From the NCBI GenBank assembly GCA_043228905.1, contig JBHGNT010000020.1, positions 930,001 through 994,000 of the forward strand: a stretch of DNA of 64,000 bases, written 5' to 3'. Origin of the DNA: Azolla caroliniana. Taxonomy: Eukaryota; Plantae; Polypodiophyta. A program made the position numbers and the translations under genes. Of the stretch, positions 6,593 to 49,904 are shown in pieces. The notes under the pieces are model-generated. The model saw only the letters and a list, made by a program, of their open reading frames with translations, had not been told where the DNA came from and searched no databases. The first letter of the stretch is position 1. The number at the start of each line of letters is the position of its first letter.

Positions 6593-6629
<37 letters not shown>

Positions 6630-14488: not shown

Positions 14489-15691
14489 GAAAAGGCTCAG
14501 TATTTATTCGCACAGGTATAAAACACACATTTATATGCGACTACTCCATAATAATTTTATCTTATATATTTTTTGTTTTCAATGAACTTCCATTGTAACC
14601 AACTGGAAATGGCGCTTGTAGTTCAATTGTTAGGATAATTGCCTTCCAAGCAATAGACCCGAGTTCACCTCTCGGCAAGCGCATACCATCTTATTTTAAC
14701 CAGTACTCACAATCTAAAAGAAAAATCTATTCAAGTCCCTTTGATAATGTCATGGTCTTCGAGAGTTTCATTAGCAGAGGTTAAAAACTCTCCAACAAAT
14801 TGAAGTCCTATAAATATTTGGTCCAAAAACAGTTTTAATAAACTAGATTAGATTTTATCTTATAAGAAACTTAGGGTCAACTTTTGGTCGCTCACATAGA
14901 TCATAGAAAACATTAAGGACTCAGGTTTGATAAGAGATATTTGTACGGCTTTAGCCCTACATTTACGATATTTTTTTTGAAAGCAATAACCAACGTTTCA
15001 ATATTCCGCAAGCGCAAGCTATGTCCTTTAGAGCGGTACACGAATTGGATAAACAAAATGTATTCGATAGATTCGAGAATATAAAATTGTTCAATGACTT
15101 TCATAAGTAGATTGTAAGAACACGAGATCAAATTGAATTAATCTGATGATTAGCTTACATAGGTTGTTTTTGTGGATTTCTTTCATTTGTATGCGAGAAG
15201 AAAGTCAGGTTCAGTTTTTATTCACACAGGTATGGGACTCCCATAATTATGCGACTACTCAACAATAATTTTATCTTGCGTATTTTAAGTTTCTAATAAG
15301 CTTCCACTGGAAGTAGATGGAAATTGTGCTTGTAGTCCAACGGTTAGGATAATTGTCTTCCAAGCAATAAACCTGAGTTCAACTCTCGGCAAGTGCATAC
15401 CATGTTATTCAACCAGTACTCACGATCTAAAAGAGAAATCTATTCAAGTCCCTTTCATAATGTTACGTTCTTCGAGAGCTTCGTTACGTTCTTCGAGAGT
15501 TTCATTAGAAAAGGTTAAAACGTCTCCGACAAATTGAAGTCCCATAAATATTTGGCCCAAAAACGGTTTTTAGAAACTAGATTCGTTTTTATCTTATAAG
15601 AGACTCACATTTATATGCGACTACTCAACAATAATTTTATCTTGTGTATTTTTAGTTTTTGATAAACTTCCATTAGAATCAAGTTAAAATT

Positions 15692-15763
15692 GCGCTTGTA
15701 GTCCAACGGTTAGGATAATTGCCTTCCATGCAATATACCCGAGTTCAACTCTCGGCAGGCGCA
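15692..15763 (+). tRNA. tRNA-Gly(TCC), near-intact
   Basis: Cloverleaf kept, with U5:G68, U38 and a variable-loop change. Confidence 0.55.
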
Positions 15764-16324
15764 TACCATGTTATTCCAACCAGTACTCATCTAAAAGAGA
15801 AATCTATTCAAGTCACATTCATAATGTTACGTTCTCGAGAGTTTCGTTACGTTCTTCGAGAGTTTCATTAGAAGAGGTTAAAATGTCTCCACCAAATTGA
15901 TGTCCCATAAATATTTGGCCCAAAAACCGTTTTTAGAAACTAGATTCGTTTTTATCTTATAAGAGACTCACATTTATATGCGACTACTCAACAATAAGTT
16001 TATCTTGTGTATTTTTTGTTTTTGATAAACTTCCATTAGAATCAGGTTGAAATTGCGCTTGGAGTTCAATAGTTAGGATAATTGCCTTCCAAGCAATAGC
16101 CTTGAGTTCAACTCTCGGCAGGCGCATACCATGTTATTGCAACCAGTACTCACAATCTAAAAGAGAAATCTATTCAACTCCCGTTCATAATGTCACGTTC
16201 TTCGAGAGTTTCATTAGCAAAGGTTAAAAATTCTCCAAAAATTGAAGTGCTATAAATATTTCGTCCAAAGACAATTTTAATAAATGTGATTCGTTTTTAT
16301 CTTATCAGAAACTTGGCCTCACGT

Positions 16325-17072
16325 TGTCGTGCCTTTCGGCTCCGGATCGTTTGCGTGAGTCGGGTGGGAACCACCGGGGTTTTGGACTAGGAGGAGGAAG
16401 AATTTGAGACTATTATAATTATGAGTAGATTATTAGAAACTTGTGAATCCCACAAGTATAATGTATTTTATTGATTAATATTTATGTAAGAATATGTATT
16501 TAGATTGATAGAGAAAGATATAGAAATCTCGTGAATCCCACGAGTATAGTTTGTTAATTGGTGTTTTAGGAAATATATCCAATTTCCCAAATATTTCACA
16601 CACCTATTACATTGTGCTCCCCATCCTTATGTAGTGATGGGAGAGACTAAGCATAGCTACATGCTTTTTTTCTAATATGTTCATGCACACTAAATGTGCA
16701 TGTGATGCTTTTCTAATCCTTGCTTTTATTTGCTAAATATAGTGCTCATGCACGCTAGATGTGCATGAGTCACTTTTTAGTTGCTTGCGTTTTTCTATAA
16801 AATATTCACGCACTCTAAAAATGCATGGTTTACCTTTTAATAAAGGTAGGCGCAAATAAAGCACTTATAGTTATTAAATCTATTTATAGAGCACTAAAGA
16901 TAAGGTAGCATAATGGTAAAGTTGAGGTTTGGCTACGTGGAGGTACAAGGTTTGAATCTTGCCCTATGCACGTGATAAATACTTTGATATTCTTATTTTA
17001 TTTATTTATATGTAATTAAATCGTTTATATTATTTTTACTTTTTCACGTAGTGTACGAAATACACTACGACA
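16325..17072 (-). repeat. 3' LTR
   Basis: TG...CA with 6-bp terminal inverted repeat; one visible mismatch (16894 vs 19693) to the other LTR. Confidence 0.95.
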
Positions 17073-19085
17073 CTCGCCCCCTCCGAACCCGCACATCCTC
17101 CGGTATGTGCCGAAGTTGCCGATGCTTGTTGTCTCCCCTTCATCCTCCGTTTGTCCCGCTATGTCAACTTTGTCTCTCCATTTTGAGTAGACCCATTCTT
17201 TCCACCCGAACCATTGTCGCCATCCGATCCACCATATTCTTTGTTCTCTCTCGTCATATTCTTGGCCCTTGTCATTCGTGGTAGTGTCTTTTACTGACCT
17301 CTTTCTTGTCTTCATCAACCTTGACTTTTTTCCGAATCGCTCTCGTCCGATCGACTTTCGGTTTGATCGGCTTCCGATCGGATTCGTACTCGGCTGAATC
17401 GGAATCGGTTGTTCGGTTTCGATTGAGTCGGTCTCCTTCCGGCCCGGTTTCGATCTATCGGTTTCGGTTTTGGTTGGCTTTCTTTTCCTCGTTTTCACCA
17501 GCCTCGACCGGTCCAACCTCCGGTTGAGTCGGATTAGCTTCTTTTCGGATCGGTTTCGTCCGATCGGCTTTCGGCTAGGTCGGCTTCCATCCATATTCGC
17601 GTTCGGCCAAGTCAGACTCAGTCGATCGGTTTTGGCCGAGTCGACCCCTTTTCGGGTCGGCTTTCTTTTGGGTCGTCTTTCGGCTGAATCCTCATTTGCC
17701 TGGTTCGGCTTTCGTTTGTATCGTCTTTCGGCCGAATTCTCTTCCTTTCGGTTCGGCTTTCTTTCGGGTCGACTTTTGGTCGAATCCTCTTTTACCCGGT
17801 TCGGCTTTCTTTCGGATCGGAATCCCGTCCGGATCACCTTCCATCCAAACCGGCTTCCGACTTTACCTTTCTTGCTGCCACCTCCCGTCTCTCCGGTCTC
17901 ACGTTGGTTCTCAGACACAACCGCCGAAGTCTCTAGGATTAGTGGGCAGGAATCCTCAGTATTATCATCCTCCATTGTTTCACCCATAGCCATATTCTCG
18001 GCTATCTCTCTGTCGTATGCATCGACTTCGACCTTTGTTTTCTCTCCGCCACCTTCCGTCTCTTCGGTCTCACGTTGCCTTTCGAACGCAACCGCCGGAG
18101 TCTCTGGAATTAGTGGTGGGGAAGTCTCGATATGGCCATCCGTCGTTGATTCGTCCATAGCCACCTTCAATTCGATGTCATCTTTCGTGGTGACCTCCTC
18201 AATCAAGTCCTCTGTGCTCTCTTTCATTGCATCAATTATGCTTACCCCTTTTTCACCCGATGTTTCAGACACTTGTATTCTGAAATCTTCTTCTACACTT
18301 GGGTTATCGGCCTTATCCTTCGTCGTTGTTCTTTCGCAAGACAAGAGGGTAGCTTGTTTTACACCCTCTTCCGTCGCACCATCATGTTGTATTTCGGCCT
18401 TCATATCGGCTCCATCATTTGTCTTCAATCGACCATCCTTCATTGGCCATGTCGTTGACAAGATTCTCATCTTCCTCTCATCATGTCTCCGGCATACCCT
18501 TTGGACTTTGGCCCAATCTTCGGTAAGACCATTCGTACCTTCATCGTCTTCGAGTTCGATCCCGATGTCCATCCTTTCTTTTCGATCGATCGATTTTACG
18601 AACATTAGGACTTTATCCTCCCCCACCAACCGTTGTTCTCGCTCCAAGAGTCGAGCAAAACGATTCTCGAACTCTAGGAATGCTTGTGTTGCACTTCGGT
18701 GGGTCTTCTCCGATGCCACCCATTCGTCGAATTCTCGCCGATCTTTTCCCTTCGATCTCTTGTAATCATATGCCTCTCGTAAAGCTTCTTCGAATGACCC
18801 CCATGTCGAGTTTTGTTGCCGTATCTTGTGGATTCTCTCTTGTAGCTCATCCGTGGCCACCCGATTGAAGGATGTCACTTGCAATCCTTCCGGTATCCCA
18901 CATCGTATCATCTCCGCCTTGTAGTCACGTAGATAGCGTGACACATCGTTTCCGTTGAATTGTCCGTTTCGTTGTACGAGCCGCTTTACTGCCCCCGTGA
19001 TCTCCGACATCACTCGTTGTTCTTGTAGCATCCGCTCGAACATCATCATCATCGTTATGCTCATTGCCTCTTGTTGATTCTCCAT
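17025..19085 (-). CDS. gag: Gag-like protein with acidic and Lys/Arg-rich low-complexity C-terminal regions (~686 aa from first ATG)
   Basis: Uninterrupted ORF fills the internal domain. N-terminal FNGNDVSRYLRDY...TWGSFEEALREAY resembles Ty3/gypsy capsid. First ATG is at 19085; the ORF-track GTG at 19106 lies in the PBS. Stop lies inside the 3' LTR. Confidence 0.75.
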   Translation of the reverse strand: MENQQEAMSITMMMMFERMLQEQRVMSEITGAVKRLVQRNGQFNGNDVSRYLRDYKAEMIRCGIPEGLQVTSFNRVATDELQERIHKIRQQNSTWGSFEEALREAYDYKRSKGKDRREFDEWVASEKTHRSATQAFLEFENRFARLLEREQRLVGEDKVLMFVKSIDRKERMDIGIELEDDEGTNGLTEDWAKVQRVCRRHDERKMRILSTTWPMKDGRLKTNDGADMKAEIQHDGATEEGVKQATLLSCERTTTKDKADNPSVEEDFRIQVSETSGEKGVSIIDAMKESTEDLIEEVTTKDDIELKVAMDESTTDGHIETSPPLIPETPAVAFERQRETEETEGGGEKTKVEVDAYDREIAENMAMGETMEDDNTEDSCPLILETSAVVSENQRETGETGGGSKKGKVGSRFGWKVIRTGFRSERKPNRVKEDSTKSRPERKPNRKEENSAERRYKRKPNQANEDSAERRPKRKPTRKGVDSAKTDRLSLTWPNANMDGSRPSRKPIGRNRSEKKLIRLNRRLDRSRLVKTRKRKPTKTETDRSKPGRKETDSIETEQPIPIQPSTNPIGSRSNRKSIGRERFGKKSRLMKTRKRSVKDTTTNDKGQEYDEREQRIWWIGWRQWFGWKEWVYSKWRDKVDIAGQTEDEGETTSIGNFGTYRRMCGFGGGECRSVFRTLREKVKII
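17073..17092 (-). promoter_or_regulatory. Polypurine tract
   Basis: rc GCGGGTTCGGAGGGGGCGAG immediately precedes the 3' LTR. Confidence 0.75.
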
Positions 19086-19101
19086 CTCCTTGCCACCCGC
19101 C

Positions 19102-19119
19102 TTCACGTCGGGTTCACCA
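19102..19119 (-). promoter_or_regulatory. Primer-binding site complementary to tRNA-Trp 3' end
   Basis: + strand TTCACGTCGGGTTCACCA matches the 3' 18 nt of plant cytosolic tRNA-Trp plus CCA (recalled sequence); 4 nt from the 5' LTR. Confidence 0.85.
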
Positions 19120-19123
19120 ACTG

Positions 19124-19871
19124 TGTCGTGCCTTTCGGCTCCGGATCGTTTGCGTGAGTCGGGTGGGAACCACCGGGGTTTTGGACTAGGAGGAGGAAGA
19201 ATTTGAGACTATTATAATTATGAGTAGATTATTAGAAACTTGTGAATCCCACAAGTATAATGTATTTTATTGATTAATATTTATGTAAGAATATGTATTT
19301 AGATTGATAGAGAAAGATATAGAAATCTCGTGAATCCCACGAGTATAGTTTGTTAATTGGTGTTTTAGGAAATATATCCAATTTCCCAAATATTTCACAC
19401 ACCTATTACATTGTGCTCCCCATCCTTATGTAGTGATGGGAGAGACTAAGCATAGCTACATGCTTTTTTTCTAATATGTTCATGCACACTAAATGTGCAT
19501 GTGATGCTTTTCTAATCCTTGCTTTTATTTGCTAAATATAGTGCTCATGCACGCTAGATGTGCATGAGTCACTTTTTAGTTGCTTGCGTTTTTCTATAAA
19601 ATATTCACGCACTCTAAAAATGCATGGTTTACCTTTTAATAAAGGTAGGCGCAAATAAAGCACTTATAGTTATTAAATCTATTTATAGAGCATTAAAGAT
19701 AAGGTAGCATAATGGTAAAGTTGAGGTTTGGCTACGTGGAGGTACAAGGTTTGAATCTTGCCCTATGCACGTGATAAATACTTTGATATTCTTATTTTAT
19801 TTATTTATATGTAATTAAATCGTTTATATTATTTTTACTTTTTCACGTAGTGTACGAAATACACTACGACA
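19124..19871 (-). repeat. 5' LTR
   Basis: 748-bp direct repeat of 16325-17072. Confidence 0.95.
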
Positions 19872-22800
19872 ACGTTTTGGTCGCTCACATAAAACATAGA
19901 AAACATTCAGGACTCAAGTTTGATATGAGATATTTGTGCGGCTTTACCCGTACAATTAGAATATTTTTCTTGAAAGGAATCACCAACGTTTCAATATTCC
20001 GCACGCGCAAACTATGTCCTGTAGAGCGGTACTCGAATTGGATAAACAAAACGTATTCGATAGATTCAAGAATATAAAATTATTCAATCACTTTCATAAG
20101 TAGATTGTAAGAACAGGAGATCAAATTGAATTAATCTGATGATTAGCTTACATATGTTGTTTTTGTGGTATTCTTTCATTTGTTTGCGAGAAGAAAGTAT
20201 TGTTCACCCTTTATTTGCACAAGTATAGGACTCCCATAATTATGCGATTACTCAACAATAATATTATCTTGCGTATTTTAAGTTTCTGATAAGCTTCCAC
20301 TGGAAGTAGATGGAAATTGTGCTTGTAGTCCAATGGTTATGATATTTGGCTTCCAAGCAATAGACCCGAGTTCAATTCTAACCAAGCGCATACCATGTTA
20401 TTCAACCATTACTCACGATCTAAAAGAGAAATCTATTCAAGTCGCTTTCATAATGTTATGTTCTATGAGTGTTTCGTTACGTTCATCCATAGTTTCAATA
20501 GAAGAGGTTAAAATGTCTCCAACAAATTGAAGTCCCATAAATATGTGGCCCAAAAACCGTTTTTAGAAACTAGATTCGTTTTTATCTTATAAGAGACTCA
20601 AATTTATATGGGACTACTAACCAATAAATTTATCTTCTGTATTTTATGTTTTTGATAAACTTCCATTAGAATAAGGTTGAAATTGCTTGTAGTCAAAACA
20701 TAGAAAACATTAAGCAGTCGGGTTTGATATGAGATATTTGTGCGGCTTTAGCCGTACAATTAGGATATTTTTCTTGAAAGCAATCACCAACATTTCAATA
20801 TTCCGCAAGCACAACCAATGTCCTTTAGAGCGGTACTCGAATTGGATAAACAAAATGTATTCGATAGATTCGAGAATATATCGTAATTGAATTACTTTCA
20901 TAATTAGATTGTAAGAACACGAGATAAAAATGAATTAATCTATTGATTAGCTTACATAGCTTGGTTTTATGGATTTCTTTCATTTGTATGCGAGAAGAAA
21001 GTAATGTTCAGTTTTTATTCACACAGCTATAGGACTCCCATAATTATGCGACCACCCTACAATAATTTTATCTTCCCTATTTCAAGTTTCTAATAAGCTT
21101 CTACTGGAAGTAGATGGAAATTGCGCTTGTAGTCCAACGGTTAGGATAATTGCGCTTGTAGTCCAACGGGTTTTAGAAACTAGATTCCTTTTTATGTTTT
21201 AAGAGACTCACATTTATATGCGACTACACAACAATAAATTTATTTTGTGTATTTTATGTTTTTGATAAACTTCCATTAGAATCAAGTTGAAATTGCGCTT
21301 GTAGTCTAACGGTTAGGGTAATTGCCTTCCAAGGAATAAACCCGAGTTCAACTCTCGGCATGCGCATACCATGTTATTGCAACCAGTACTCACGATCTAA
21401 AAGAGAAATCTATTCAAGTCCCGTTTATAATGTCACGTTCTTCGAGAGTTTCATTAGCAGAGGTTAAAAAGTATCCAACAAATTGAAGTCCTATAAATAT
21501 TTGGTCAAAAAACAGTTTTAATAAACTAGATTCGTTTTTATCATTTCAGAAACTTAGGGTTACGTTTTGGTCGCTCACATAAAACGTAGAAAACATTAAG
21601 GACTCGGATTTGATATGAGATATTTGTACGGCTTTAGCCGTACAATTAGGATATTTTTCTTGAAAGCAATCACCAACATTTCAATATTCCGCAAGCGCAA
21701 CCAATGTCCTTTACAGCGGTACTCGAACTGGATAAACAAAATGTATTCGATAGGACTCCCGTAAATATGCGACTACCCAATAATAATTTTATCTTCCCTA
21801 TTTTAAGTTTCTGATAAGCTTCCACTGGAAGTAGATGGAAATTGCGCTTGTAGTCCAACGGTTAGGATAATTTCCTTCCACGAAATAGACCCGACTTCAA
21901 CTCTCCGCAAGCGCATACAATGTTATTTCAACTAGTACTAACGATCCAAAAGAAAAATATATTCAAGTCCGTTCATAATGTTACGTTCTTCCAGAGTTTC
22001 ATTAGCAGAGGTTAAAATGTCTCCAACAAATTGAAGTCCCATAAATATTTTGTCCAAAAACGGTTTTAATTAAAATGTCTCCAACAAATTGAAGTCCCAT
22101 CAATGTTTTGCTCAAAAACGTTTTTAATAAAGTAGATACGTTTTTATCTTATAAGATACATAGGATCACCTTCTGGTAGCTCACATAAAACGTAGAAAAA
22201 ACATTAAGGACTCAGGTTCGATATGAGATATTTGTGTGGCTTTAGCCGTACAATTAGGATATTTTTTCGTGAAAGAAATAACCAACGTTTCAATATTCCG
22301 CACGCGCAAACTATGTCCTTTACAGCGGTACTCTAATTGGATAAACAAAGAGTATTCGATAGATTCGAGAATATAAAATTATTCAATCACTTTCATTAGT
22401 AGATTGTAAGAACATGAGATCAAATTGAATTAATTTGATGATTAGCTTACATAGGTTGTTTTTGTGGATTTCTTTCATTTGTATGCGAGAAGAAAGTATT
22501 GTTCAGTTTTTATTCGCACATGTATAGGACGCCCATAATTATGCGATTACCCAACAATAATTTTATCTTGCGTATGTTAGGTGTTTGATAAGCTTCCACT
22601 GAAACTAGATGGAAATTGCGGTTGTAGTCCAACGGTTAGGATAATTCCCTTCCAAGGAATAGACCCGAGTTCAACTCTCGGCAAACGCATACCATGTTAT
22701 TCAACCAATACTCACGATCTAAAAGAGAAATCTATTCAAGCCCCGTTCATAATGTTACGTTCTTCCAGAGTTTCAGTAGAAGAGGTTAAAATGTCTCCAA

Positions 22801-23674
22801 CAAATTAAAGTCCCATAAATATTTAGCCCAAAAACGAGTTTTAAAAACTAGATTCGTTTTACGTTTTAAGAGACTCACATTTATATGCGACTACACAACA
22901 ATAAATTTATTTTGTGTATTTTATGTTTTTGATAAACTTCCATTCGAATCAGGTTGAAATTGCGCTTGTAGTCTAACGGTTAGGATAATTGCCTTCCAAG
23001 GAATAGACCCGAGTTTAACTTTCGGCATGCGCATACCATGTTATTGCAACCAGTACTCACTATCTAAAAGAGAAATCTATTCAACTCCCGTTCATAATGT
23101 CATGTTCTTCGAGAGTTTCATTAGTAGATGTTGAAAAGTCTCCAACAAATTGAAGTCCTATAAATATTTGGTCCAAAAACGGTTTTAATAAACTTGATTC
23201 GTTTTTATGTTATCAGAAACTTAGGGTTACGTTTTGGTCTCTCATATAAAACATAGAAAACATTAAGGACTCGGGTTTTATATGACATATTTGTGCGGCT
23301 TTAGCCGTACAATTAGGATATTTTTCTTGAAAGCAATCACCAACATTTCAATATTCTGCAAGCGCAACCAATGTCCTTTAGAGCAGTACTCGAATTGGAT
23401 AAACAAAATGTATTCGATAGATTCGAGAATATATCATTATTGAATGACTTTCATAATTAGATTGTACGAACACAAGATAAAAATGAATTAATATGTAGAT
23501 TAGCTTACATAGGTTGTTTAAGTGGATTTCTTTCATTTGTATGCGAGAAGAAAAGTAAGGTTCAGTTTTTATTCGCATAGGTATAGGACTCCCATAATTA
23601 TGCGACTACTCAACAATAATTTTATCTTGCCGATTTTAAGTTTCTGATAAGCTTCCATAAAAGAGGAGGAAATT

Positions 23675-23746
23675 GCGCTTGTAGCCCAACGGTTAGGATA
23701 ATTGCCTTCCAAGCAATAGACCCGAGTTCAACTCTCGGCAAGCGCA
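23675..23746 (+). tRNA. tRNA-Gly(TCC), one D-stem mismatch
   Basis: GCGCTTGTAGCCCAACGG...CAAGCGCA. Confidence 0.6.
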
Positions 23747-24369
23747 TACCATGTTATTTTAACTAGTACTCATGATCTAAAATAGAAATCTATTCAAGTC
23801 CCGTTCCTAATGTTACGTTCTTCGAGAGTTTGATTACCAGAGATTAAAATGTATCCAACAAATTAAAGTCCTATACATATTTTGTGCAAAAACGGTTTTA
23901 ATAAACTAGGTTCCTTTTTATCTTATAAGAAACTTAGAGTCACTATTTGGTCGCTCACATAAAACATAGAAAACATTAAGAACTCAGGTTTGATATGAGA
24001 TATTTGTGCGGCTTTAGCCGCACAATTAGCATATTTTTCTTGAAAGCAATAACCAACGTTTGAATATTACGCAAGCATAAGCTATGTCCTTTAGAGCGGT
24101 ACTCGAATAAGATAGATTTGAGAATATAAAATTGTTCAATGACTTTCATAAGTAGATTGTAAGAACACGAGATCAAATTGAATTAATCTGATGATTAGCT
24201 TACCTGGATTGTTTTTGTGGATTTCTTTCATTTGTATGCGAGAAGAAAGTAAGGTTCAGTTTTTATTCGTACAGGTATAGGACTCCCATAATTATGCGAC
24301 TACTCAACAATAATTTTATCTTGCCTATTTTATGTTTCTCATAAGATTCCACAGAAGTGGATGGAAATT

Positions 24370-24441
24370 GCGCTTGTAGTCCAACGGTTAGGATAATTGC
24401 CTTCCAAGCAGTAGACCCGAGTTCAACTCTCGGCAAGCGCA
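24370..24441 (+). tRNA. tRNA-Gly(TCC), type A with U28:G42
   Basis: Full cloverleaf. Confidence 0.75.
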
Positions 24442-25065
24442 TACCATGTTATTTCAACCAGTACTCACGATCTACAATAGAAATCTATTGAAGTCCCTGT
24501 CGTAATGTTACGTTCTTCGACAGTTTCATTAGCAAAGGTTTAAATGTCTCCAACAAATTGATGTCCTATAAATATTTTGTGCAAAAACCGTTTTAATAAA
24601 CTAGTTTCCTTTTTATCTTATACGAAACATAGTGTCACCTTTTGGTCGCTCACATAAAACATTGAAAACATTAATGACTCAGGTTTGATATGAGCCGTAC
24701 AAATCAGGATATTTTCCTTCAATGCAATAACCAATATTTCAATATTCCGCAAGTGCAAGCTATGTCCTTTAGAGCGATTATCGAATTGGATAGAGAAAAT
24801 GTATTCGATAGATTCGAGAATATAAGATTGTTGAATGATTTTCATAATTAGATTGTAAGAACAAGAGATAAAAATGAATTAATTTGTTGATTAGCTTACA
24901 AAGCTTGGTTTTGTGGATTTCTTTCATTTGTATGCGAGAAGGAAGTAAGGTGCAGTTTTTATTCGTACAAGTATAGGACTCCCATAATTATGCGACTACT
25001 CAACAATAATTTTATCTTGCCTATTTTATGTTTCTCATAAGATTCCACAGAAGTGGATGGAAATT

Positions 25066-25137
25066 GCGCTTGTAGTCCAACGGTTAGGATAATTGCTTTC
25101 CAAGCAATAGACCTGAGTTCAACTCTCGGCAAGCGCA
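25066..25137 (+). tRNA. tRNA-Gly(TCC), type B (U32, U50:G64)
   Basis: Full cloverleaf; loop TT-TCC-AA; T stem CTGAG/CTCGG. Confidence 0.75.
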
Positions 25138-25398
25138 TACCATGTTATTTCAACCAGTACTCACGATCTACAACAGAAATTTGTTGAAGTCCCTATCGTA
25201 ATGTTACGTTCTTCGACAATTTCATTAGCAGAGGTTTAAATGTCTCCAACTAATTGATGTCCTATAAATATTTTGTGCAAAAACCGTTTGAATAAACAAG
25301 ATTCCTTTTTATCTTATAAGAAACAAAGCGTCACCGTCTGGTCGCTCACATAGAACATAGAAAACATCAAGGAGTCAGGTTTGATATGAGATATTTGT

Positions 25399-25470
25399 GC
25401 GGCTTTAGCCTTACAAATAGGATATTTTTCTTGAAAGCAATAACCAACATTTCAATATTCCGCAAGCGCA
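25399..25470 (+). pseudogene. Decayed tRNA-Gly relic in the second half of the monomer (representative copy)
   Basis: 72-nt ungapped alignment to the tRNA (GCGGCTTTAGCC...TAGGATATTTTTCTTGAAAGCAATA...TTCAATATTCCGCAAGCGCA); stems no longer pair. Confidence 0.85.
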
Positions 25471-25778
25471 AGCTATGTCCTTTACAGCGATACTCGAATT
25501 GGATAGACAAAATGTATTCGAAAGATTCGAGAATATAAAATTGTTGAATGACTCTCATAATTAGTTATTAAGAACAAGAGATAAAAATAAATTAATCTGT
25601 TGATTAGCTTACATAGCTTGGTTTTGTTGATTTCTTTCATTTGTATGCGAGAAGAAACTAAGGTTCAGTTTTTATTCGTACAGGTATAGGACTCCCATAA
25701 TTATGCGACTACTCAACAATAATTTTATCTTGCCTATTTTATGTTTCTCATAAGATTCCACAGAAGTGGATGGAAATT

Positions 25779-25850
25779 GCGCTTGTAGTCCAACGGTTAG
25801 GATAATTGCCTTCCAAGCAATAGACCCGAGTTCAACTCTCGGCAAGCGCA
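25779..25850 (+). tRNA. tRNA-Gly(TCC), type A consensus
   Basis: Acceptor GCGCTTG/CAAGCGC; D stem GTCC/GGAT; anticodon stem ATTGC/GCAAT with loop CT-TCC-AA; T stem CCGAG/CTCGG with loop TTCAACT. Confidence 0.85.
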
Positions 25851-26474
25851 TACCATGTTATTTCAACCAGTACTCACGATCTACAATAGAAATCTATTGA
25901 AGTCCCTGTCGTAATGTTACGTTCTTCGACAGTTTCATTAGCAAAGGTTTAAATGTCTCCAACAAATTGATGTCCTATAAATATTTTGTGCAAAAACCGT
26001 TTTAATAAACTAGTTTCCTTTTTATCTTATACGAAACATAGTGTCACCTTTTGGTCGCTCACATAAAACATTGAAAACATTAATGACTCAGGTTTGATAT
26101 GAGCCGTACAAATCAGGATATTTTCCTTCAATGCAATAACCAATATTTCAATATTCCGCAAGTGCAAGCTATGTCCTTTAGAGCGATTATCGAATTGGAT
26201 AGAGAAAATGTATTCGATAGATTCGAGAATATAAGATTGTTGAATGATTTTCATAATTAGATTGTAAGAACAAGAGATAAAAATGAATTAATTTGTTGAT
26301 TAGCTTACAAAGCTTGGTTTTGTGGATTTCTTTCATTTGTATGCGAGAAGGAAGTAAGGTGCAGTTTTTATTCGTACAAGTATAGGACTCCCATAATTAT
26401 GCGACTACTCAACAATAATTTTATCTTGCCTATTTTATGTTTCTCATAAGATTCCACAGAAGTGGATGGAAATT

Positions 26475-26546
26475 GCGCTTGTAGTCCAACGGTTAGGATA
26501 ATTGCTTTCCAAGCAATAGACCTGAGTTCAACTCTCGGCAAGCGCA
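26475..26546 (+). tRNA. tRNA-Gly(TCC), type B
   Basis: Same as 25066. Confidence 0.75.
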
Positions 26547-27187
26547 TACCATGTTATTTCAACCAGTACTCACGATCTACAACAGAAATTTGTTGAAGTC
26601 CCTATCGTAATGTTACGTTCTTCGACAATTTCATTAGCAGAGGTTTAAATGTCTCCAACTAATTGATGTCCTATAAATATTTTGTGCAAAAACCGTTTGA
26701 ATAAACAAGATTCCTTTTTATCTTATAAGAAACAAAGCGTCACCGTCTGGTCGCTCACATAGAACATAGAAAACATCAAGGAGTCAGGTTTGATATGAGA
26801 TATTTGTGCGGCTTTAGCCTTACAAATAGGATATTTTTCTTGAAAGCAATAACCAACATTTCAATATTCCGCAAGCGCAAGCTATGTCCTTTACAGCGAT
26901 ACTCGAATTGGATAGACAAAATGTATTCGAAAGATTCGAGAATATAAAATTGTTCAATGACTTTCATAAGTAGATTGTAAGAACACGAGATCAAATTGAA
27001 TTAATCTGATGATTAGCTTACATGGATTGTTTTTGTGGATTTCTTTCATTTGTATGCGAGAAGAAAGTAAGGTTCAGTTTTTATTCGTACAGGTATAGGA
27101 CTCCCATAATTATGCGACTACTCAACAATAATTTTATCTTGCCTATTTTATGTTTCTCATAAGATTCCACAGAAGTGGATGGAAATT

Positions 27188-27259
27188 GCGCTTGTAGTCC
27201 AACGGTTAGGATAATTGCCTTCCAAGCAATAGACCCGAGTTCAACTCTCGGCAAGCGCA
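27188..27259 (+). tRNA. tRNA-Gly(TCC), type A
   Basis: Same as 25779. Confidence 0.85.
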
Positions 27260-27883
27260 TACCATGTTATTTCAACCAGTACTCACGATCTACAATAGAA
27301 ATCTATTGAAGTCCCTGTCATAATGTTACGTTCTTCGACAGTTTCATTAGCAAAGGTTTAAATGTCTCCAACAAATTGATGTCCTATAAATATTTTGTGC
27401 AAAAACCGTTTTAATAAACTAGTTTCCTTTTTATCTTATACGAAACATAGTGTCACCTTTTGGTCGCTCACATAAAACATTGAAAACATTAATGACTCAG
27501 GTTTGATATGAGCCGTACAAATCAGGATATTTTCCTTCAATGCAATAACCAATATTTCAATATTCCGCAAGTGCAAGCTATGTCCTTTAGAGCGATTATC
27601 GAATTGGATAGAGAAAATGTATTCGATAGATTCGAGAATATAAGATTGTTGAATGATTTTCATAATTAGATTGTAAGAACAAGAGATAAAAATGAATTAA
27701 TTTGTTGATTAGCTTACAAAGCTTGGTTTTGTGGATTTCTTTCATTTGTATGCGAGAAGGAAGTAAGGTGCAGTTTTTATTCGTACAAGTATAGGACTCC
27801 CATAATTATGCGACTACTCAACAATAATTTTATCTTGCCTATTTTATGTTTCTCATAAGATTCCACAGAAGTGGATGGAAATT

Positions 27884-27955
27884 GCGCTTGTAGTCCAACG
27901 GTTAGGATAATTGCTTTCCAAGCAATAGACCTGAGTTCAACTCTCGGCAAGCGCA
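27884..27955 (+). tRNA. tRNA-Gly(TCC), type B
   Basis: Same as 25066. Confidence 0.75.
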
Positions 27956-28596
27956 TACCATGTTATTTCAACCAGTACTCACGATCTACAACAGAAATTT
28001 GTTGAAGTCCCTATCGTAATGTTACGTTCTTCGACAATTTCATTAGCAGAGGTTTAAATGTCTCCAACTAATTGATGTCCTATAAATATTTTGTGCAAAA
28101 ACCGTTTGAATAAACAAGATTCCTTTTTATCTTATAAGAAACAAAGCGTCACCGTCTGGTCGCTCACATAGAACATAGAAAACATCAAGGAGTCAGGTTT
28201 GATATGAGATATTTGTGCGGCTTTAGCCTTACAAATAGGATATTTTTCTTGAAAGCAATAACCAACATTTCAATATTCCGCAAGCGCAAGCTATGTCCTT
28301 TACAGCGATACTCGAATTGGATAGACAAAATGTATTCGAAAGATTCGAGAATATAAAATTGTTGAATGACTCTCATAATTAGTTATTAAGAACAAGAGAT
28401 AAAAATAAATTAATCTGTTGATTAGCTTACATAGCTTGGTTTTGTTGATTTCTTTCATTTGTATGCGAGAAGAAACTAAGGTTCAGTTTTTATTCGTACA
28501 GGTATAGGACTCCCATAATTATGCGACTACTCAACAATAATTTTATCTTGCCTATTTTATGTTTCTCATAAGATTCCACAGAAGTGGATGGAAATT

Positions 28597-28668
28597 GCGC
28601 TTGTAGTCCAACGGTTAGGATAATTGCCTTCCAAGCAATAGACCCGAGTTCAACTCTCGGCAAGCGCA
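28597..28668 (+). tRNA. tRNA-Gly(TCC), type A
   Basis: Same as 25779. Confidence 0.85.
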
Positions 28669-29292
28669 TACCATGTTATTTCAACCAGTACTCACGATCT
28701 ACAATAGAAATCTATTGAAGTCCCTGTCGTAATGTTACGTTCTTCGACAGTTTCATTAGCAAAGGTTTAAATGTCTCCAACAAATTGATGTCCTATAAAT
28801 ATTTTGTGCAAAAACCGTTTTAATAAACTAGTTTCCTTTTTATCTTATACGAAACATAGTGTCACCTTTTGGTCGCTCACATAAAACATTGAAAACATTA
28901 ATGACTCAGGTTTGATATGAGCCGTACAAATCAGGATATTTTCCTTCAATGCAATAACCAATATTTCAATATTCCGCAAGTGCAAGCTATGTCCTTTAGA
29001 GCGATTATCGAATTGGATAGAGAAAATGTATTCGATAGATTCGAGAATATAAGATTGTTGAATGATTTTCATAATTAGATTGTAAGAACAAGAGATAAAA
29101 ATGAATTAATTTGTTGATTAGCTTACAAAGCTTGGTTTTGTGGATTTCTTTCATTTGTATGCGAGAAGGAAGTAAGGTGCAGTTTTTATTCGTACAAGTA
29201 TAGGACTCCCATAATTATGCGACTACTCAACAATAATTTTATCTTGCCTATTTTATGTTTCTCATAAGATTCCACAGAAGTGGATGGAAATT

Positions 29293-29364
29293 GCGCTTGT
29301 AGTCCAACGGTTAGGATAATTGCTTTCCAAGCAATAGACCTGAGTTCAACTCTCGGCAAGCGCA
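29293..29364 (+). tRNA. tRNA-Gly(TCC), type B
   Basis: Same as 25066. Confidence 0.75.
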
Positions 29365-30005
29365 TACCATGTTATTTCAACCAGTACTCACGATCTACAA
29401 CAGAAATTTGTTGAAGTCCCTATCGTAATGTTACGTTCTTCGACAATTTCATTAGCAGAGGTTTAAATGTCTCCAACTAATTGATGTCCTATAAATATTT
29501 TGTGCAAAAACCGTTTGAATAAACAAGATTCCTTTTTATCTTATAAGAAACAAAGCGTCACCGTCTGGTCGCTCACATAGAACATAGAAAACATCAAGGA
29601 GTCAGGTTTGATATGAGATATTTGTGCGGCTTTAGCCTTACAAATAGGATATTTTTCTTGAAAGCAATAACCAACATTTCAATATTCCGCAAGCGCAAGC
29701 TATGTCCTTTACAGCGATACTCGAATTGGATAGACAAAATGTATTCGAAAGATTCGAGAATATAAAATTGTTCAATGACTTTCATAAGTAGATTGTAAGA
29801 ACACGAGATCAAATTGAATTAATCTGATGATTAGCTTACATGGATTGTTTTTGTGGATTTCTTTCATTTGTATGCGAGAAGAAAGTAAGGTTCAGTTTTT
29901 ATTCGTACAGGTATAGGACTCCCATAATTATGCGACTACTCAACAATAATTTTATCTTGCCTATTTTATGTTTCTCATAAGATTCCACAGAAGTGGATGG
30001 AAATT

Positions 30006-30077
30006 GCGCTTGTAGTCCAACGGTTAGGATAATTGCCTTCCAAGCAATAGACCCGAGTTCAACTCTCGGCAAGCGCA
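30006..30077 (+). tRNA. tRNA-Gly(TCC), type A
   Basis: Same as 25779. Confidence 0.85.
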
Positions 30078-30701
30078 TACCATGTTATTTCAACCAGTAC
30101 TCACGATCTACAATAGAAATCTATTGAAGTCCCTGTCATAATGTTACGTTCTTCGACAGTTTCATTAGCAAAGGTTTAAATGTCTCCAACAAATTGATGT
30201 CCTATAAATATTTTGTGCAAAAACCGTTTTAATAAACTAGTTTCCTTTTTATCTTATACGAAACATAGTGTCACCTTTTGGTCGCTCACATAAAACATTG
30301 AAAACATTAATGACTCAGGTTTGATATGAGCCGTACAAATCAGGATATTTTCCTTCAATGCAATAACCAATATTTCAATATTCCGCAAGTGCAAGCTATG
30401 TCCTTTAGAGCGATTATCGAATTGGATAGAGAAAATGTATTCGATAGATTCGAGAATATAAGATTGTTGAATGATTTTCATAATTAGATTGTAAGAACAA
30501 GAGATAAAAATGAATTAATTTGTTGATTAGCTTACAAAGCTTGGTTTTGTGGATTTCTTTCATTTGTATGCGAGAAGGAAGTAAGGTGCAGTTTTTATTC
30601 GTACAAGTATAGGACTCCCATAATTATGCGACTACTCAACAATAATTTTATCTTGCCTATTTTATGTTTCTCATAAGATTCCACAGAAGTGGATGGAAAT
30701 T

Positions 30702-30773
30702 GCGCTTGTAGTCCAACGGTTAGGATAATTGCTTTCCAAGCAATAGACCTGAGTTCAACTCTCGGCAAGCGCA
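30702..30773 (+). tRNA. tRNA-Gly(TCC), type B
   Basis: Same as 25066. Confidence 0.75.
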
Positions 30774-31414
30774 TACCATGTTATTTCAACCAGTACTCAC
30801 GATCTACAACAGAAATTTGTTGAAGTCCCTATCGTAATGTTACGTTCTTCGACAATTTCATTAGCAGAGGTTTAAATGTCTCCAACTAATTGATGTCCTA
30901 TAAATATTTTGTGCAAAAACCGTTTGAATAAACAAGATTCCTTTTTATCTTATAAGAAACAAAGCGTCACCGTCTGGTCGCTCACATAGAACATAGAAAA
31001 CATCAAGGAGTCAGGTTTGATATGAGATATTTGTGCGGCTTTAGCCTTACAAATAGGATATTTTTCTTGAAAGCAATAACCAACATTTCAATATTCCGCA
31101 AGCGCAAGCTATGTCCTTTACAGCGATACTCGAATTGGATAGACAAAATGTATTCGAAAGATTCGAGAATATAAAATTGTTGAATGACTCTCATAATTAG
31201 TTATTAAGAACAAGAGATAAAAATAAATTAATCTGTTGATTAGCTTACATAGCTTGGTTTTGTTGATTTCTTTCATTTGTATGCGAGAAGAAACTAAGGT
31301 TCAGTTTTTATTCGTACAGGTATAGGACTCCCATAATTATGCGACTACTCAACAATAATTTTATCTTGCCTATTTTATGTTTCTCATAAGATTCCACAGA
31401 AGTGGATGGAAATT

Positions 31415-31486
31415 GCGCTTGTAGTCCAACGGTTAGGATAATTGCCTTCCAAGCAATAGACCCGAGTTCAACTCTCGGCAAGCGCA
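31415..31486 (+). tRNA. tRNA-Gly(TCC), type A
   Basis: Same as 25779. Confidence 0.85.
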
Positions 31487-32110
31487 TACCATGTTATTTC
31501 AACCAGTACTCACGATCTACAATAGAAATCTATTGAAGTCCCTGTCGTAATGTTACGTTCTTCGACAGTTTCATTAGCAAAGGTTTAAATGTCTCCAACA
31601 AATTGATGTCCTATAAATATTTTGTGCAAAAACCGTTTTAATAAACTAGTTTCCTTTTTATCTTATACGAAACATAGTGTCACCTTTTGGTCGCTCACAT
31701 AAAACATTGAAAACATTAATGACTCAGGTTTGATATGAGCCGTACAAATCAGGATATTTTCCTTCAATGCAATAACCAATATTTCAATATTCCGCAAGTG
31801 CAAGCTATGTCCTTTAGAGCGATTATCGAATTGGATAGAGAAAATGTATTCGATAGATTCGAGAATATAAGATTGTTGAATGATTTTCATAATTAGATTG
31901 TAAGAACAAGAGATAAAAATGAATTAATTTGTTGATTAGCTTACAAAGCTTGGTTTTGTGGATTTCTTTCATTTGTATGCGAGAAGGAAGTAAGGTGCAG
32001 TTTTTATTCGTACAAGTATAGGACTCCCATAATTATGCGACTACTCAACAATAATTTTATCTTGCCTATTTTATGTTTCTCATAAGATTCCACAGAAGTG
32101 GATGGAAATT

Positions 32111-32182
32111 GCGCTTGTAGTCCAACGGTTAGGATAATTGCTTTCCAAGCAATAGACCTGAGTTCAACTCTCGGCAAGCGCA
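32111..32182 (+). tRNA. tRNA-Gly(TCC), type B
   Basis: Same as 25066. Confidence 0.75.
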
Positions 32183-32823
32183 TACCATGTTATTTCAACC
32201 AGTACTCACGATCTACAACAGAAATTTGTTGAAGTCCCTATCGTAATGTTACGTTCTTCGACAATTTCATTAGCAGAGGTTTAAATGTCTCCAACTAATT
32301 GATGTCCTATAAATATTTTGTGCAAAAACCGTTTGAATAAACAAGATTCCTTTTTATCTTATAAGAAACAAAGCGTCACCGTCTGGTCGCTCACATAGAA
32401 CATAGAAAACATCAAGGAGTCAGGTTTGATATGAGATATTTGTGCGGCTTTAGCCTTACAAATAGGATATTTTTCTTGAAAGCAATAACCAACATTTCAA
32501 TATTCCGCAAGCGCAAGCTATGTCCTTTACAGCGATACTCGAATTGGATAGACAAAATGTATTCGAAAGATTCGAGAATATAAAATTGTTGAATGACTCT
32601 CATAATTAGTTATTAAGAACAAGAGATAAAAATAAATTAATCTGTTGATTAGCTTACATAGCTTGGTTTTGTTGATTTCTTTCATTTGTATGCGAGAAGA
32701 AACTAAGGTTCAGTTTTTATTCGTACAGGTATAGGACTCCCATAATTATGCGACTACTCAACAATAATTTTATCTTGCCTATTTTATGTTTCTCATAAGA
32801 TTCCACAGAAGTGGATGGAAATT

Positions 32824-32895
32824 GCGCTTGTAGTCCAACGGTTAGGATAATTGCCTTCCAAGCAATAGACCCGAGTTCAACTCTCGGCAAGCGCA
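32824..32895 (+). tRNA. tRNA-Gly(TCC), type A
   Basis: Same as 25779. Confidence 0.85.
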
Positions 32896-33519
32896 TACCA
32901 TGTTATTTCAACCAGTACTCACGATCTACAATAGAAATCTATTGAAGTCCCTGTCGTAATGTTACGTTCTTCGACAGTTTCATTAGCAAAGGTTTAAATG
33001 TCTCCAACAAATTGATGTCCTATAAATATTTTGTGCAAAAACCGTTTTAATAAACTAGTTTCCTTTTTATCTTATACGAAACATAGTGTCACCTTTTGGT
33101 CGCTCACATAAAACATTGAAAACATTAATGACTCAGGTTTGATATGAGCCGTACAAATCAGGATATTTTCCTTCAATGCAATAACCAATATTTCAATATT
33201 CCGCAAGTGCAAGCTATGTCCTTTAGAGCGATTATCGAATTGGATAGAGAAAATGTATTCGATAGATTCGAGAATATAAGATTGTTGAATGATTTTCATA
33301 ATTAGATTGTAAGAACAAGAGATAAAAATGAATTAATTTGTTGATTAGCTTACAAAGCTTGGTTTTGTGGATTTCTTTCATTTGTATGCGAGAAGGAAGT
33401 AAGGTGCAGTTTTTATTCGTACAAGTATAGGACTCCCATAATTATGCGACTACTCAACAATAATTTTATCTTGCCTATTTTATGTTTCTCATAAGATTCC
33501 ACAGAAGTGGATGGAAATT

Positions 33520-33591
33520 GCGCTTGTAGTCCAACGGTTAGGATAATTGCTTTCCAAGCAATAGACCTGAGTTCAACTCTCGGCAAGCGCA
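33520..33591 (+). tRNA. tRNA-Gly(TCC), type B
   Basis: Same as 25066. Confidence 0.75.
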
Positions 33592-34232
33592 TACCATGTT
33601 ATTTCAACCAGTACTCACGATCTACAACAGAAATTTGTTGAAGTCCCTATCGTAATGTTACGTTCTTCGACAATTTCATTAGCAGAGGTTTAAATGTCTC
33701 CAACTAATTGATGTCCTATAAATATTTTGTGCAAAAACCGTTTGAATAAACAAGATTCCTTTTTATCTTATAAGAAACAAAGCGTCACCGTCTGGTCGCT
33801 CACATAGAACATAGAAAACATCAAGGAGTCAGGTTTGATATGAGATATTTGTGCGGCTTTAGCCTTACAAATAGGATATTTTTCTTGAAAGCAATAACCA
33901 ACATTTCAATATTCCGCAAGCGCAAGCTATGTCCTTTACAGCGATACTCGAATTGGATAGACAAAATGTATTCGAAAGATTCGAGAATATAAAATTGTTG
34001 AATGACTCTCATAATTAGTTATTAAGAACAAGAGATAAAAATAAATTAATCTGTTGATTAGCTTACATAGCTTGGTTTTGTTGATTTCTTTCATTTGTAT
34101 GCGAGAAGAAACTAAGGTTCAGTTTTTATTCGTACAGGTATAGGACTCCCATAATTATGCGACTACTCAACAATAATTTTATCTTGCCTATTTTATGTTT
34201 CTCATAAGATTCCACAGAAGTGGATGGAAATT

Positions 34233-34304
34233 GCGCTTGTAGTCCAACGGTTAGGATAATTGCCTTCCAAGCAATAGACCCGAGTTCAACTCTCGGCAAG
34301 CGCA
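34233..34304 (+). tRNA. tRNA-Gly(TCC), type A
   Basis: Same as 25779. Confidence 0.85.
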
Positions 34305-34928
34305 TACCATGTTATTTCAACCAGTACTCACGATCTACAATAGAAATCTATTGAAGTCCCTGTCGTAATGTTACGTTCTTCGACAGTTTCATTAGCAAAG
34401 GTTTAAATGTCTCCAACAAATTGATGTCCTATAAATATTTTGTGCAAAAACCGTTTTAATAAACTAGTTTCCTTTTTATCTTATACGAAACATAGTGTCA
34501 CCTTTTGGTCGCTCACATAAAACATTGAAAACATTAATGACTCAGGTTTGATATGAGCCGTACAAATCAGGATATTTTCCTTCAATGCAATAACCAATAT
34601 TTCAATATTCCGCAAGTGCAAGCTATGTCCTTTAGAGCGATTATCGAATTGGATAGAGAAAATGTATTCGATAGATTCGAGAATATAAGATTGTTGAATG
34701 ATTTTCATAATTAGATTGTAAGAACAAGAGATAAAAATGAATTAATTTGTTGATTAGCTTACAAAGCTTGGTTTTGTGGATTTCTTTCATTTGTATGCGA
34801 GAAGGAAGTAAGGTGCAGTTTTTATTCGTACAAGTATAGGACTCCCATAATTATGCGACTACTCAACAATAATTTTATCTTGCCTATTTTATGTTTCTCA
34901 TAAGATTCCACAGAAGTGGATGGAAATT

Positions 34929-35000
34929 GCGCTTGTAGTCCAACGGTTAGGATAATTGCTTTCCAAGCAATAGACCTGAGTTCAACTCTCGGCAAGCGCA
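34929..35000 (+). tRNA. tRNA-Gly(TCC), type B
   Basis: Same as 25066. Confidence 0.75.
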
Positions 35001-35641
35001 TACCATGTTATTTCAACCAGTACTCACGATCTACAACAGAAATTTGTTGAAGTCCCTATCGTAATGTTACGTTCTTCGACAATTTCATTAGCAGAGGTTT
35101 AAATGTCTCCAACTAATTGATGTCCTATAAATATTTTGTGCAAAAACCGTTTGAATAAACAAGATTCCTTTTTATCTTATAAGAAACAAAGCGTCACCGT
35201 CTGGTCGCTCACATAGAACATAGAAAACATCAAGGAGTCAGGTTTGATATGAGATATTTGTGCGGCTTTAGCCTTACAAATAGGATATTTTTCTTGAAAG
35301 CAATAACCAACATTTCAATATTCCGCAAGCGCAAGCTATGTCCTTTACAGCGATACTCGAATTGGATAGACAAAATGTATTCGAAAGATTCGAGAATATA
35401 AAATTGTTGAATGACTCTCATAATTAGTTATTAAGAACAAGAGATAAAAATAAATTAATCTGTTGATTAGCTTACATAGCTTGGTTTTGTTGATTTCTTT
35501 CATTTGTATGCGAGAAGAAACTAAGGTTCAGTTTTTATTCGTACAGGTATAGGACTCCCATAATTATGCGACTACTCAACAATAATTTTATCTTGCCTAT
35601 TTTATGTTTCTCATAAGATTCCACAGAAGTGGATGGAAATT

Positions 35642-35713
35642 GCGCTTGTAGTCCAACGGTTAGGATAATTGCCTTCCAAGCAATAGACCCGAGTTCAACT
35701 CTCGGCAAGCGCA
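35642..35713 (+). tRNA. tRNA-Gly(TCC), type A
   Basis: Same as 25779. Confidence 0.85.
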
Positions 35714-36337: not shown

Positions 36338-36409
36338 GCGCTTGTAGTCCAACGGTTAGGATAATTGCTTTCCAAGCAATAGACCTGAGTTCAACTCTCG
36401 GCAAGCGCA
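36338..36409 (+). tRNA. tRNA-Gly(TCC), type B
   Basis: Same as 25066. Confidence 0.75.
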
Positions 36410-37050: not shown

Positions 37051-37122
37051 GCGCTTGTAGTCCAACGGTTAGGATAATTGCCTTCCAAGCAATGGACCCG
37101 AGTTCAACTCTCGGCAAGCGCA
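37051..37122 (+). tRNA. tRNA-Gly(TCC), variable-loop variant GGAC
   Basis: All stems intact. Confidence 0.8.

Positions 37123-49869: not shown

Positions 49870-49904
<35 letters not shown>

What the first reader, a model, noticed from the sequence alone, without database searches (positions are those of the whole stretch)
25066..25778. The 713-bp monomer is an ancient dimer: one intact tRNA half and one decayed tRNA half
Seen: 333 bp after the tRNA start lies a 72-nt ungapped homolog (25399-25470) with broken stems. The downstream flanks also align, e.g. TTTCGTTTTTATCTTATAAGAATGTTAGGGTCACCTTTTGCTCGCTCACATAAAA...AAGGACTCAGG vs TTTCATTTGTATGCTAGAAGAAAGTAAGGCTCACTATTCGTTCGCTCAGGTAACA...AAGGACTCAC. 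The relic lacks the ~60-bp 5' flank (CAACAATAATTTTATCTTG...) that precedes the intact gene. Inference: the two halves are the same age yet only one stayed a perfect tRNA. This internal control suggests long purifying selection on the copy that kept its upstream region.
Basis: partly seen in the sequence, partly recalled or inferred. Interest (0 to 1): 0.75.

Follow-up and report, generated by a model that had tools for sequence, protein, structure and literature searches.

The report
tRNA array pairing gene with pseudogene
A plant tandem repeat carries in each 700-base unit one intact glycine tRNA gene and its decayed twin from an old duplication; single copies of the gene mutate as fast as the surrounding DNA, yet the units that gave rise to many copies show no change in it, which likely means natural selection filters which units get multiplied.

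Summary
Confirmed: 25399-25470 is an ungapped relic of the tRNA-Gly(TCC) gene at 25066 (47 of 72; shuffles at most 34), and the flanks of the two halves are homologous (69% in ancestral-type units). The window is a land-plant tRNA-Gly array; this copy sits in a young 1409-bp higher-order repeat. Against other plants' genes the relic took 16-23 changes, the gene 0-1. New here: on a tree of 35 units the gene mutates at the flank rate on terminal branches (134 changes) but shows 0 changes on deep branches (about 18 expected; control blocks 8-19). Constraint acts on units that amplify, not on each copy; selection is the likeliest cause, conversion from other arrays the main rival. Expression untested. 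Closest known: Arabidopsis tRNA clusters and the Xenopus 5S gene-plus-pseudogene unit. New variant of a known kind; moderate interest.

The parts
25066..25137 (+). tRNA-Gly(TCC) gene, intact half; two tolerated changes from the array consensus
   Evidence: ARAGORN; Rfam RF00005 68.1 bits; copy table
25138..25156 (+). Trailer with a TTATTT run, little changed between subfamilies, absent behind relics; possible weak Pol III stop (inferred)
   Evidence: no deep-branch change at monomer positions 140-157; TTATTT within 22 nt behind 35 of 49 distinct gene copies and 0 of 35 relics
25138..25398 (+). Downstream flank of the gene half (A flank); first T4 at +134, first T5 at +169
25389..25398 (+). 10-nt remnant that stands where the gene has a 73-nt upstream block (about 63 nt lost)
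   Evidence: half-to-half alignment; sequence
25399..25470 (+). Decayed tRNA-Gly pseudogene: A box, B box, anticodon and stems broken
   Evidence: 47 of 72; no Rfam match; lesions shared by nearly all relics
25471..25705 (+). Downstream flank of the relic half (B flank), homologous to the A flank
   Evidence: 160 of 231 aligned columns in ancestral-type consensus, 130 of 231 in young consensus
25706..25778 (+). Upstream block of the next gene; ancestral-type units carry a TATA-like TGATAAAA near -30 and CAA at -6, young units have TCATAAG and GAA
25779..25850 (+). Next tRNA-Gly(TCC) gene, equal to the array consensus
   Evidence: Rfam 71.4 bits; cloverleaf is the minimum-energy fold, z -3.6
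24304..36984 (+). Young higher-order repeat, nine copies of 1409 bp (696+713), 0-2 or 16-17 differences between copies
1..64000 (+). The array as a whole: monomer matches cover 52,515 of 64,000 bases; 57 ARAGORN genes; 77 gene-type and about 62 relic-type copies, all on the + strand
8563..9230 (+). Example of an ancestral-type unit (relic 53 of 72 to the gene)

Best explanation
This is a tandem array of tRNA-Gly(TCC) genes whose repeat unit arose by duplication of a roughly 350-bp gene unit, one half of which became a pseudogene, and the intact gene is likely kept by purifying selection that acts on which units spread through the array rather than on each copy. Shown: dimer origin; dead internal promoter in the relic; neutral-rate decay of the relic and of single gene copies; no change of the gene on lineages that left four or more descendant units. 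Inferred: units multiply by unequal exchange; one damaged copy among many costs nothing, but an amplified damaged copy would cut the supply of tRNA-Gly(UCC) or add faulty tRNA and is removed; some array copies are therefore transcribed by RNA polymerase III from their internal A and B boxes at some stage. The relic rides along as neutral spacer.
For: Dimer. Relative rate against the commonest tRNA-Gly(TCC) in 125 plant-type loci: 16 relic-only against 1 gene-only change for the ancestral-type relic, 23 against 0 for 25399; the array's five differences from that form are two compensated pairs and a T-loop purine swap. Tree of 35 of 68 distinct segments built without the tRNA: tRNA 134 terminal / 11 small-clade / 0 deep changes, A-half flanks 515 / 112 / 69, p=4e-7; expected 18 deep and 28 small-clade; eight control blocks left out of tree building show 8-19 deep changes each, the tRNA 0. 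Tree-free: 0 of 72 tRNA columns against 67 of 569 flank columns with a minor allele of 25% or more; ancestral against young consensus 0 of 72 against 81 of 569, p=5e-5. The invariance covers all 72 nt, anticodon arm and acceptor stem included, not only the boxes. Contigs of four DNA runs show the same gene joined to more distant flank variants.
Against: No evidence of transcription was obtained. Only 29 of 77 gene-type copies keep all stems and invariant bases, 4 of 46 outside the young blocks. A T4 run lies within 30 nt behind 6 of 49 distinct copies against 63 of 67 control loci from other plants, and CAA before 16 of 49 against 52 of 67 (the controls are of other, undetermined plant lineages, and PMC13437025 section 7 reports both signals weaker outside angiosperms). 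Arabidopsis clusters are methylated and mostly silent (PMC7544208) and their size was judged neutral (PMC2886086). The ratio of flank to tRNA-relic distance is 1.4-1.5 where the simple model predicts 2 (interval 0.8-2.7). Per-copy tRNA changes are overdispersed (p=0.0005). In the young block alone the test has little power (shared alleles 1 in 72 columns, p=0.08). Recombination between units makes one tree an approximation.
Confidence: 0.62

Rival explanations
1. Ectopic gene conversion: the 72-nt gene is repeatedly overwritten from working tRNA-Gly(TCC) genes elsewhere; the relic has diverged too far to be converted. The array copies need not be used.
For: The zero-change block is the gene plus 5 nt upstream (monomer 62-138), the extent of near-identity with donors; summed contig depth over the gene is roughly tenfold that over the flanks and loose ends show other flank families (not a copy number); overdispersion of per-copy changes; one position (52) where most relics keep the common plant base and the gene does not.
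Against: Conversion blind to a copy's fate would erase terminal-branch mutations too, yet these stand at the flank rate (53 against 45-55 per 1000 cells) while deep ones are absent; diverged peripheral copies are not reset. It still needs selection on the donors.
Confidence: 0.2
2. Amplification bias without benefit to the plant: a unit with an active Pol III gene recombines or re-replicates more often (fork pausing, open chromatin), so intact genes spread for mechanical reasons.
For: Gives the same terminal-against-deep asymmetry; intact copies are concentrated in the most recently amplified blocks (25 of 31). That tRNA genes pause forks is recalled, not from a call.
Against: It predicts constraint on the A and B boxes only; the anticodon arm and acceptor stem show no deep change either, and the lineage-specific stem changes are compensated.
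Confidence: 0.12
3. Neutral satellite: the gene half looks intact only because it was added recently or by chance.
For: Single copies decay at the flank rate; canonical terminator missing.
Against: Both halves share flank homology and four derived tRNA positions; the flanks and the relic kept changing from ancestral to young units (7 of 7 relic changes lead away from the gene, four of them used to define the groups; flanks 14:3 and 26:3) while the gene did not.
Confidence: 0.03

Closest known systems
Xenopus laevis 5S DNA repeat (Jacq et al. 1977; seen only as the opening of the abstract of PMC9274356)
   Same: Tandem unit that pairs a Pol III gene with a pseudogene copy of it.
   Different: 5S rRNA in a frog, with a pseudogene described as nearly identical; here a tRNA gene in a plant, with a relic 24-35% diverged and a higher-order repeat on top.
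Arabidopsis Ser-Tyr-Tyr tRNA cluster (PMC2886086 passages; PMC7544208 passages; PMC13437025 passages)
   Same: Tens of kb of tandem tRNA units with an internal duplication (TyrA/TyrB), unequal crossing-over, damaged copies at the array ends.
   Different: Both Tyr copies are genes; terminators are near the gene; no pseudogene fixed in every unit in the passages read; judged neutral in size. Here one half is dead in all units and founder lineages show a measured absence of change.
Arabidopsis tRNA-Cys cluster, chromosome 5 (PMC10701932 passages)
   Same: Single-isotype units of about 0.4 kb with a tRNA pseudogene that tRNAscan-SE mostly misses.
   Different: Four to six units and one flanking pseudogene, against more than 60 kb with a pseudogene in each unit.
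Very large tRNA gene sets of ferns (Azolla filiculoides, more than 7500 genes; PMC13578239 passages; 7848 in Table S1 of PMC13437025)
   Different: The species of this window was not determined; the passages read ascribe the number to duplication and repeat content and describe no array anatomy.
tRNA-derived SINEs and tRNA-derived satellites (recalled, no call)
   Same: tRNA-like sequence multiplied with its flanks.
   Different: Copies are head-to-tail on one strand, and the whole cloverleaf with anticodon is kept.

Membership tests
Tandem tRNA gene homocluster (PMC13437025 definition) | Five or more tRNA genes of one isotype within 5 kb | tested here: met
   Genes every 696-713 bp from 23674 to 43651
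Tandem tRNA gene homocluster (PMC13437025 definition) | Genes score as true tRNAs | tested here: met
   Rfam 68.1 and 71.4 bits against a gathering score of 29; 29 of 77 copies structurally clean
Functional plant nuclear tRNA gene | Intact A and B boxes and cloverleaf | tested here: met
   for the consensus gene
Functional plant nuclear tRNA gene | CAA motif upstream and T4 or longer run just downstream | tested here: inconclusive
   CAA in ancestral-type units, lost in young ones; first T4 at +134; controls from other lineages
Functional plant nuclear tRNA gene | Transcribed, processed and charged | not testable with these tools
   needs raw small-RNA or tRNA sequencing of this species
Duplicated tRNA pseudogene | Homology to a gene including flanks, with inactivating lesions | tested here: met
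Duplicated tRNA pseudogene | Evolves at the neutral rate | tested here: met
   8 deep against 95 terminal changes, not different from all flanks (p=0.09), though lower than the B flank alone (p=0.006)
Gene-plus-pseudogene tandem unit (Xenopus 5S type) | Pseudogene carried in each repeat unit beside the gene | tested here: met
   an analogy of layout, not membership of the 5S family
tRNA-derived SINE | Dispersed copies with target-site duplications and a simple tail | tested here: not met
   all copies tandem and on one strand within the window; the rest of the genome was not available
Satellite DNA with higher-order repeat | Diverged monomers repeated as a near-identical multimer | tested here: met
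   monomers 90.7% alike, 1409-bp units 0-17 differences

The most novel reading that the evidence does not exclude
In this plant lineage tRNA-Gly(UCC) is supplied mainly by satellite-like arrays run like rDNA, with a lineage-specific isodecoder, no nearby canonical terminator, and selection working only at the step where a unit is amplified; the pseudogene in every unit is a built-in neutral clock that makes this filter measurable, and such arrays would account for the extreme tRNA gene counts of some ferns.
Probability: 0.3. Interest if true: 0.65.

Novelty: new variant of a known kind. Interest (0 to 1): 0.42.

Why it matters
How tandem gene arrays stay functional when each copy is redundant is a standing question for rDNA, 5S and tRNA clusters; plant tRNA clusters are described as mostly silent and neutral in size. 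This array gives a direct contrast inside one unit (gene, same-age pseudogene, flanks) and shows constraint on founder lineages but not on single copies. Trailer sequences differ between subfamilies, so expression of each subfamily can be tested. It also warns that tRNA gene counts in repeat-rich plant genomes include many damaged array copies (48 of 77 here).

Tried and rejected
No whole genome is held, so the comparison with this genome's own dispersed tRNA-Gly(TCC) genes could not be run; other plants' genes served as outgroup. Single-copy flank alignment at the finding's coordinates: not significant. Expression: no RNA holder listed; two runs guessed to be RNA gave 0 contigs laid; this is no evidence either way. 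Two sediment runs with a small share: one laid, 2 contigs only, no conclusion drawn. L084 (three Gly-TCC genes 299 and 369 bp apart with the same T-arm change): flanks do not align to this array (scores 24-32, shuffle maxima 36-45); its record is not held for further reading. A position matrix from 67 control upstream regions did not separate gene flanks from random array DNA (-6.2 against -6.0; relics -10.4). Relic as a different tRNA or structured RNA: rejected. Selection to switch the relic off: 7 of 17 relic changes hit 16 invariant or anticodon sites (p=0.046, post hoc, clustered changes), not accepted. Wobble bias at CpG in the gene (22 C>T against 13 G>A; flank 13 against 17): not tested for significance, not used. 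The insert ORF gave no Pfam match and 80 unnamed homologues, so no lineage from it. Paper searches with no plant Gly array found: 1 unrelated paper; 0; 0; first 30 of 86 'TCC' places in Table S3 of PMC13437025 showed no Gly-only plant cluster, and Azolla's code did not occur in that table. The held supplements of PMC6786969 gave no tRNA gene discussion; text that is not held may bear on the fern comparison.

Full report
Setting. ARAGORN finds 57 tRNA genes in the window, all on the + strand, 53 of them Gly(TCC). A 713-bp monomer matches 52,515 of 64,000 bases. From 24304 to 36984 two monomers (696 and 713 bp, 90.7% alike) form a 1409-bp higher-order repeat; its nine copies differ by 0-2 or 16-17 bases. 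The rest holds older, rearranged units and a few inserts. No genome is held. The index held no note on this array.

Observation. 25399-25470 matches the gene at 25066 at 47 of 72 positions ungapped (shuffles 20.2 +/- 3.7, max 34 of 5000). It has no Rfam tRNA match where the genes score 68 and 71 bits and folds no better than shuffles. I projected 101 matches of 140 bp or more on the monomer and collapsed those 97% or more alike to 68 segments. Of these, 39 could be sorted by four relic columns into 14 ancestral-type and 25 young segments. In the ancestral-type consensus the two downstream flanks align at score 130 against 23 +/- 3 (0 of 1000 shuffles reach it); in the young consensus at 36 (10 of 1000). 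Identity is 160 of 231 columns (ancestral) and 130 of 231 (young). The other half as outgroup shows that the ancestral-type state is the older one (14 to 3 in the A flank, 26 to 3 in the B flank). The relic lacks about 63 nt of the block before the gene. So the monomer is an old dimer. A date cannot be given; flank distances are 0.40 and 0.66 substitutions per site.

Which half changed. Among 124 complete tRNA copies in the fetched loci, the commonest form differs from the array gene at five sites: pairs 4-69 and 52-62 changed on both sides, and G57 to A; one copy (L114) equals the array gene and is a unit of this array. With that form as outgroup the ancestral-type relic has 16 changes of its own and the gene 1 (chi-square 13.2); the relic at 25399 has 23 and the gene 0; four derived sites are shared, so the duplication came after most of them. 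None of 39 relics keeps A14 or G18, 1 of 40 keeps G19, none of 45 keeps G53 or C61: the internal promoter is gone. The flank distance is 1.4-1.5 times the gene-relic distance; the simple model predicts 2 and the interval (0.8-2.7) includes both 1 and 2.

Where the constraint acts. Private changes are as frequent in the gene as around it: 15.0 singletons per 1000 cells against 11-15 in the other four regions; 13.9 against 16-19 in the eight distinct young units, and 26 against 22-27 in 27 peripheral ones. Of 134 terminal changes 56 break a stem. Only 29 of 77 gene-type copies are clean, 25 of 31 in the young blocks (many of them identical repeat copies) and 4 of 46 elsewhere. Shared changes behave differently. 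No tRNA column has a minor allele at 25% or more, against 6 of 72 in the relic and 67 of 569 in the flanks. Ancestral and young consensus differ at 0 of 72 gene sites, 7 of 72 relic sites (four used for sorting) and 81 of 569 flank sites (p=5e-5). On a tree of the 35 segments (of 68) that span the gene, built without the gene, it has 134 terminal, 11 small-clade and 0 deep changes against 515, 112 and 69 in the A-half flanks (p=4e-7); 18 deep changes are expected. To remove circularity, eight other blocks were each left out of tree building; they show 8-19 deep changes, the gene 0. The unchanged stretch is the gene plus 5 nt upstream; an 18-nt trailer with TTATTT is also unchanged. Recombination among units makes the tree approximate, which is why the tree-free counts matter.

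The upstream block. Twelve of 41 proximal positions differ between subfamilies, the highest rate in the unit. Ancestral-type units have a TATA-like motif near -30 and CAA at -6; young units, this copy included, have lost CAA and still show an unchanged gene. A T4 run lies within 30 nt behind 63 of 67 distinct control loci but only 6 of 49 distinct array copies. This weighs against efficient transcription, but PMC13437025 (section 7 read) reports both signals weaker outside angiosperms.

Other data. Twelve of 15 listed runs hold the stretch, under two organism labels and two metagenome labels. In four DNA runs the summed contig depth over the gene is roughly ten times that over the flanks, and loose ends show the same gene with more distant, still similar flanks. 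With the consensus copy as reference, none of the 40 best-supported differences in run X1 lies inside the gene; 100 more were not shown. Depth is not a copy number; this is a hint that more such arrays exist and that conversion donors are available.

Mechanism. Most likely (0.62): birth and death of units by unequal exchange, with purifying selection on the tRNA felt only when a unit is amplified; transcription of some copies is inferred, not shown. Conversion from genes elsewhere (0.2) explains the sharp edges but not why terminal changes stand at the full rate. Amplification favoured by an active Pol III gene (0.12) explains the asymmetry but not constraint outside the boxes. A neutral satellite (0.03) is contradicted.

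Comparison. The layout repeats the Xenopus 5S gene-plus-pseudogene unit (opening of the abstract of PMC9274356 in a search listing). Plant parallels are the Arabidopsis Ser-Tyr-Tyr array (PMC2886086, passages: unequal crossing-over, damaged copies at the ends, size judged neutral), the Cys cluster (PMC10701932, passages) and their silencing (PMC7544208, passages). PMC13437025 (abstract, passages, sections 7 and 10, supplement hits) names Pro, Ser-Tyr, Gln, Ala and Ile clusters and no Gly-only plant cluster in what I saw. PMC13578239 (abstract, passages) gives Azolla more than 7500 tRNA genes without anatomy. PMC12652284, PMC6786969 and PMC8386757 (passages) added nothing on this. Ten searches found no plant tRNA array with a pseudogene in every unit; the library lacks most subscription papers.

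Verdict. Observation confirmed; interpretation partly supported. A new variant of a known kind, with a clean measurable signal of constraint on amplifying units and no proof of expression. Interest 0.42.

Noticed in passing
window 16325-19871: Young LTR retroelement inside the array: 748-bp terminal repeats 99.9% identical, one 727-codon open frame on the minus strand whose homologue P0001 resembles retrotransposon gag clusters (score 0.93); no polymerase frame seen.
   Followed up: partly
window 16313 and 51309: Two different inserts begin at the same monomer position (325 of the reference phase), where several gene-only units also break; a possible hot spot.
   Followed up: no
window 11204-11757, 15259-16312, 22552-22895, 59342-59618: Gene-only units (periods 278, 344, 363-366 bp) that have lost the relic half; similar joints occur in contigs of other runs. 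They arise repeatedly but have not spread, so the persistence of the dimer is unexplained.
   Followed up: partly
window 1-7564 and 43254-50841: A 7.6-kb segment is duplicated at 98.6% identity; a 1.3-kb non-array insert occurs three times (5686, 48963, 52352).
   Followed up: no
window 826, 44079, 54818, 61506: ARAGORN calls tRNA-Arg(TCT) and tRNA-Val(TAC) here; these are Gly copies with point changes in the anticodon.
   Followed up: yes
L084:1-741: A second tandem array of tRNA-Gly(TCC) with three genes 299 and 369 bp apart, sharing the array's A52-U62 T-stem pair but not its acceptor stem.
   Followed up: partly
L114:1-643: An independent copy of this array's unit: identical tRNA, flanks 96% and 91% alike.
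   Followed up: yes
window 51309-52054 and 55739-56497: Two related inserts (75% alike, opposite orientation) with 48-54 bp internal repeats.
   Followed up: no
literature: PMC13578239 states that the Azolla filiculoides plastid lacks tRNA-Gly(TCC); if this genome is of a similar fern, import into plastids could raise demand for the nuclear tRNA. Speculative; species not determined.
   Followed up: no
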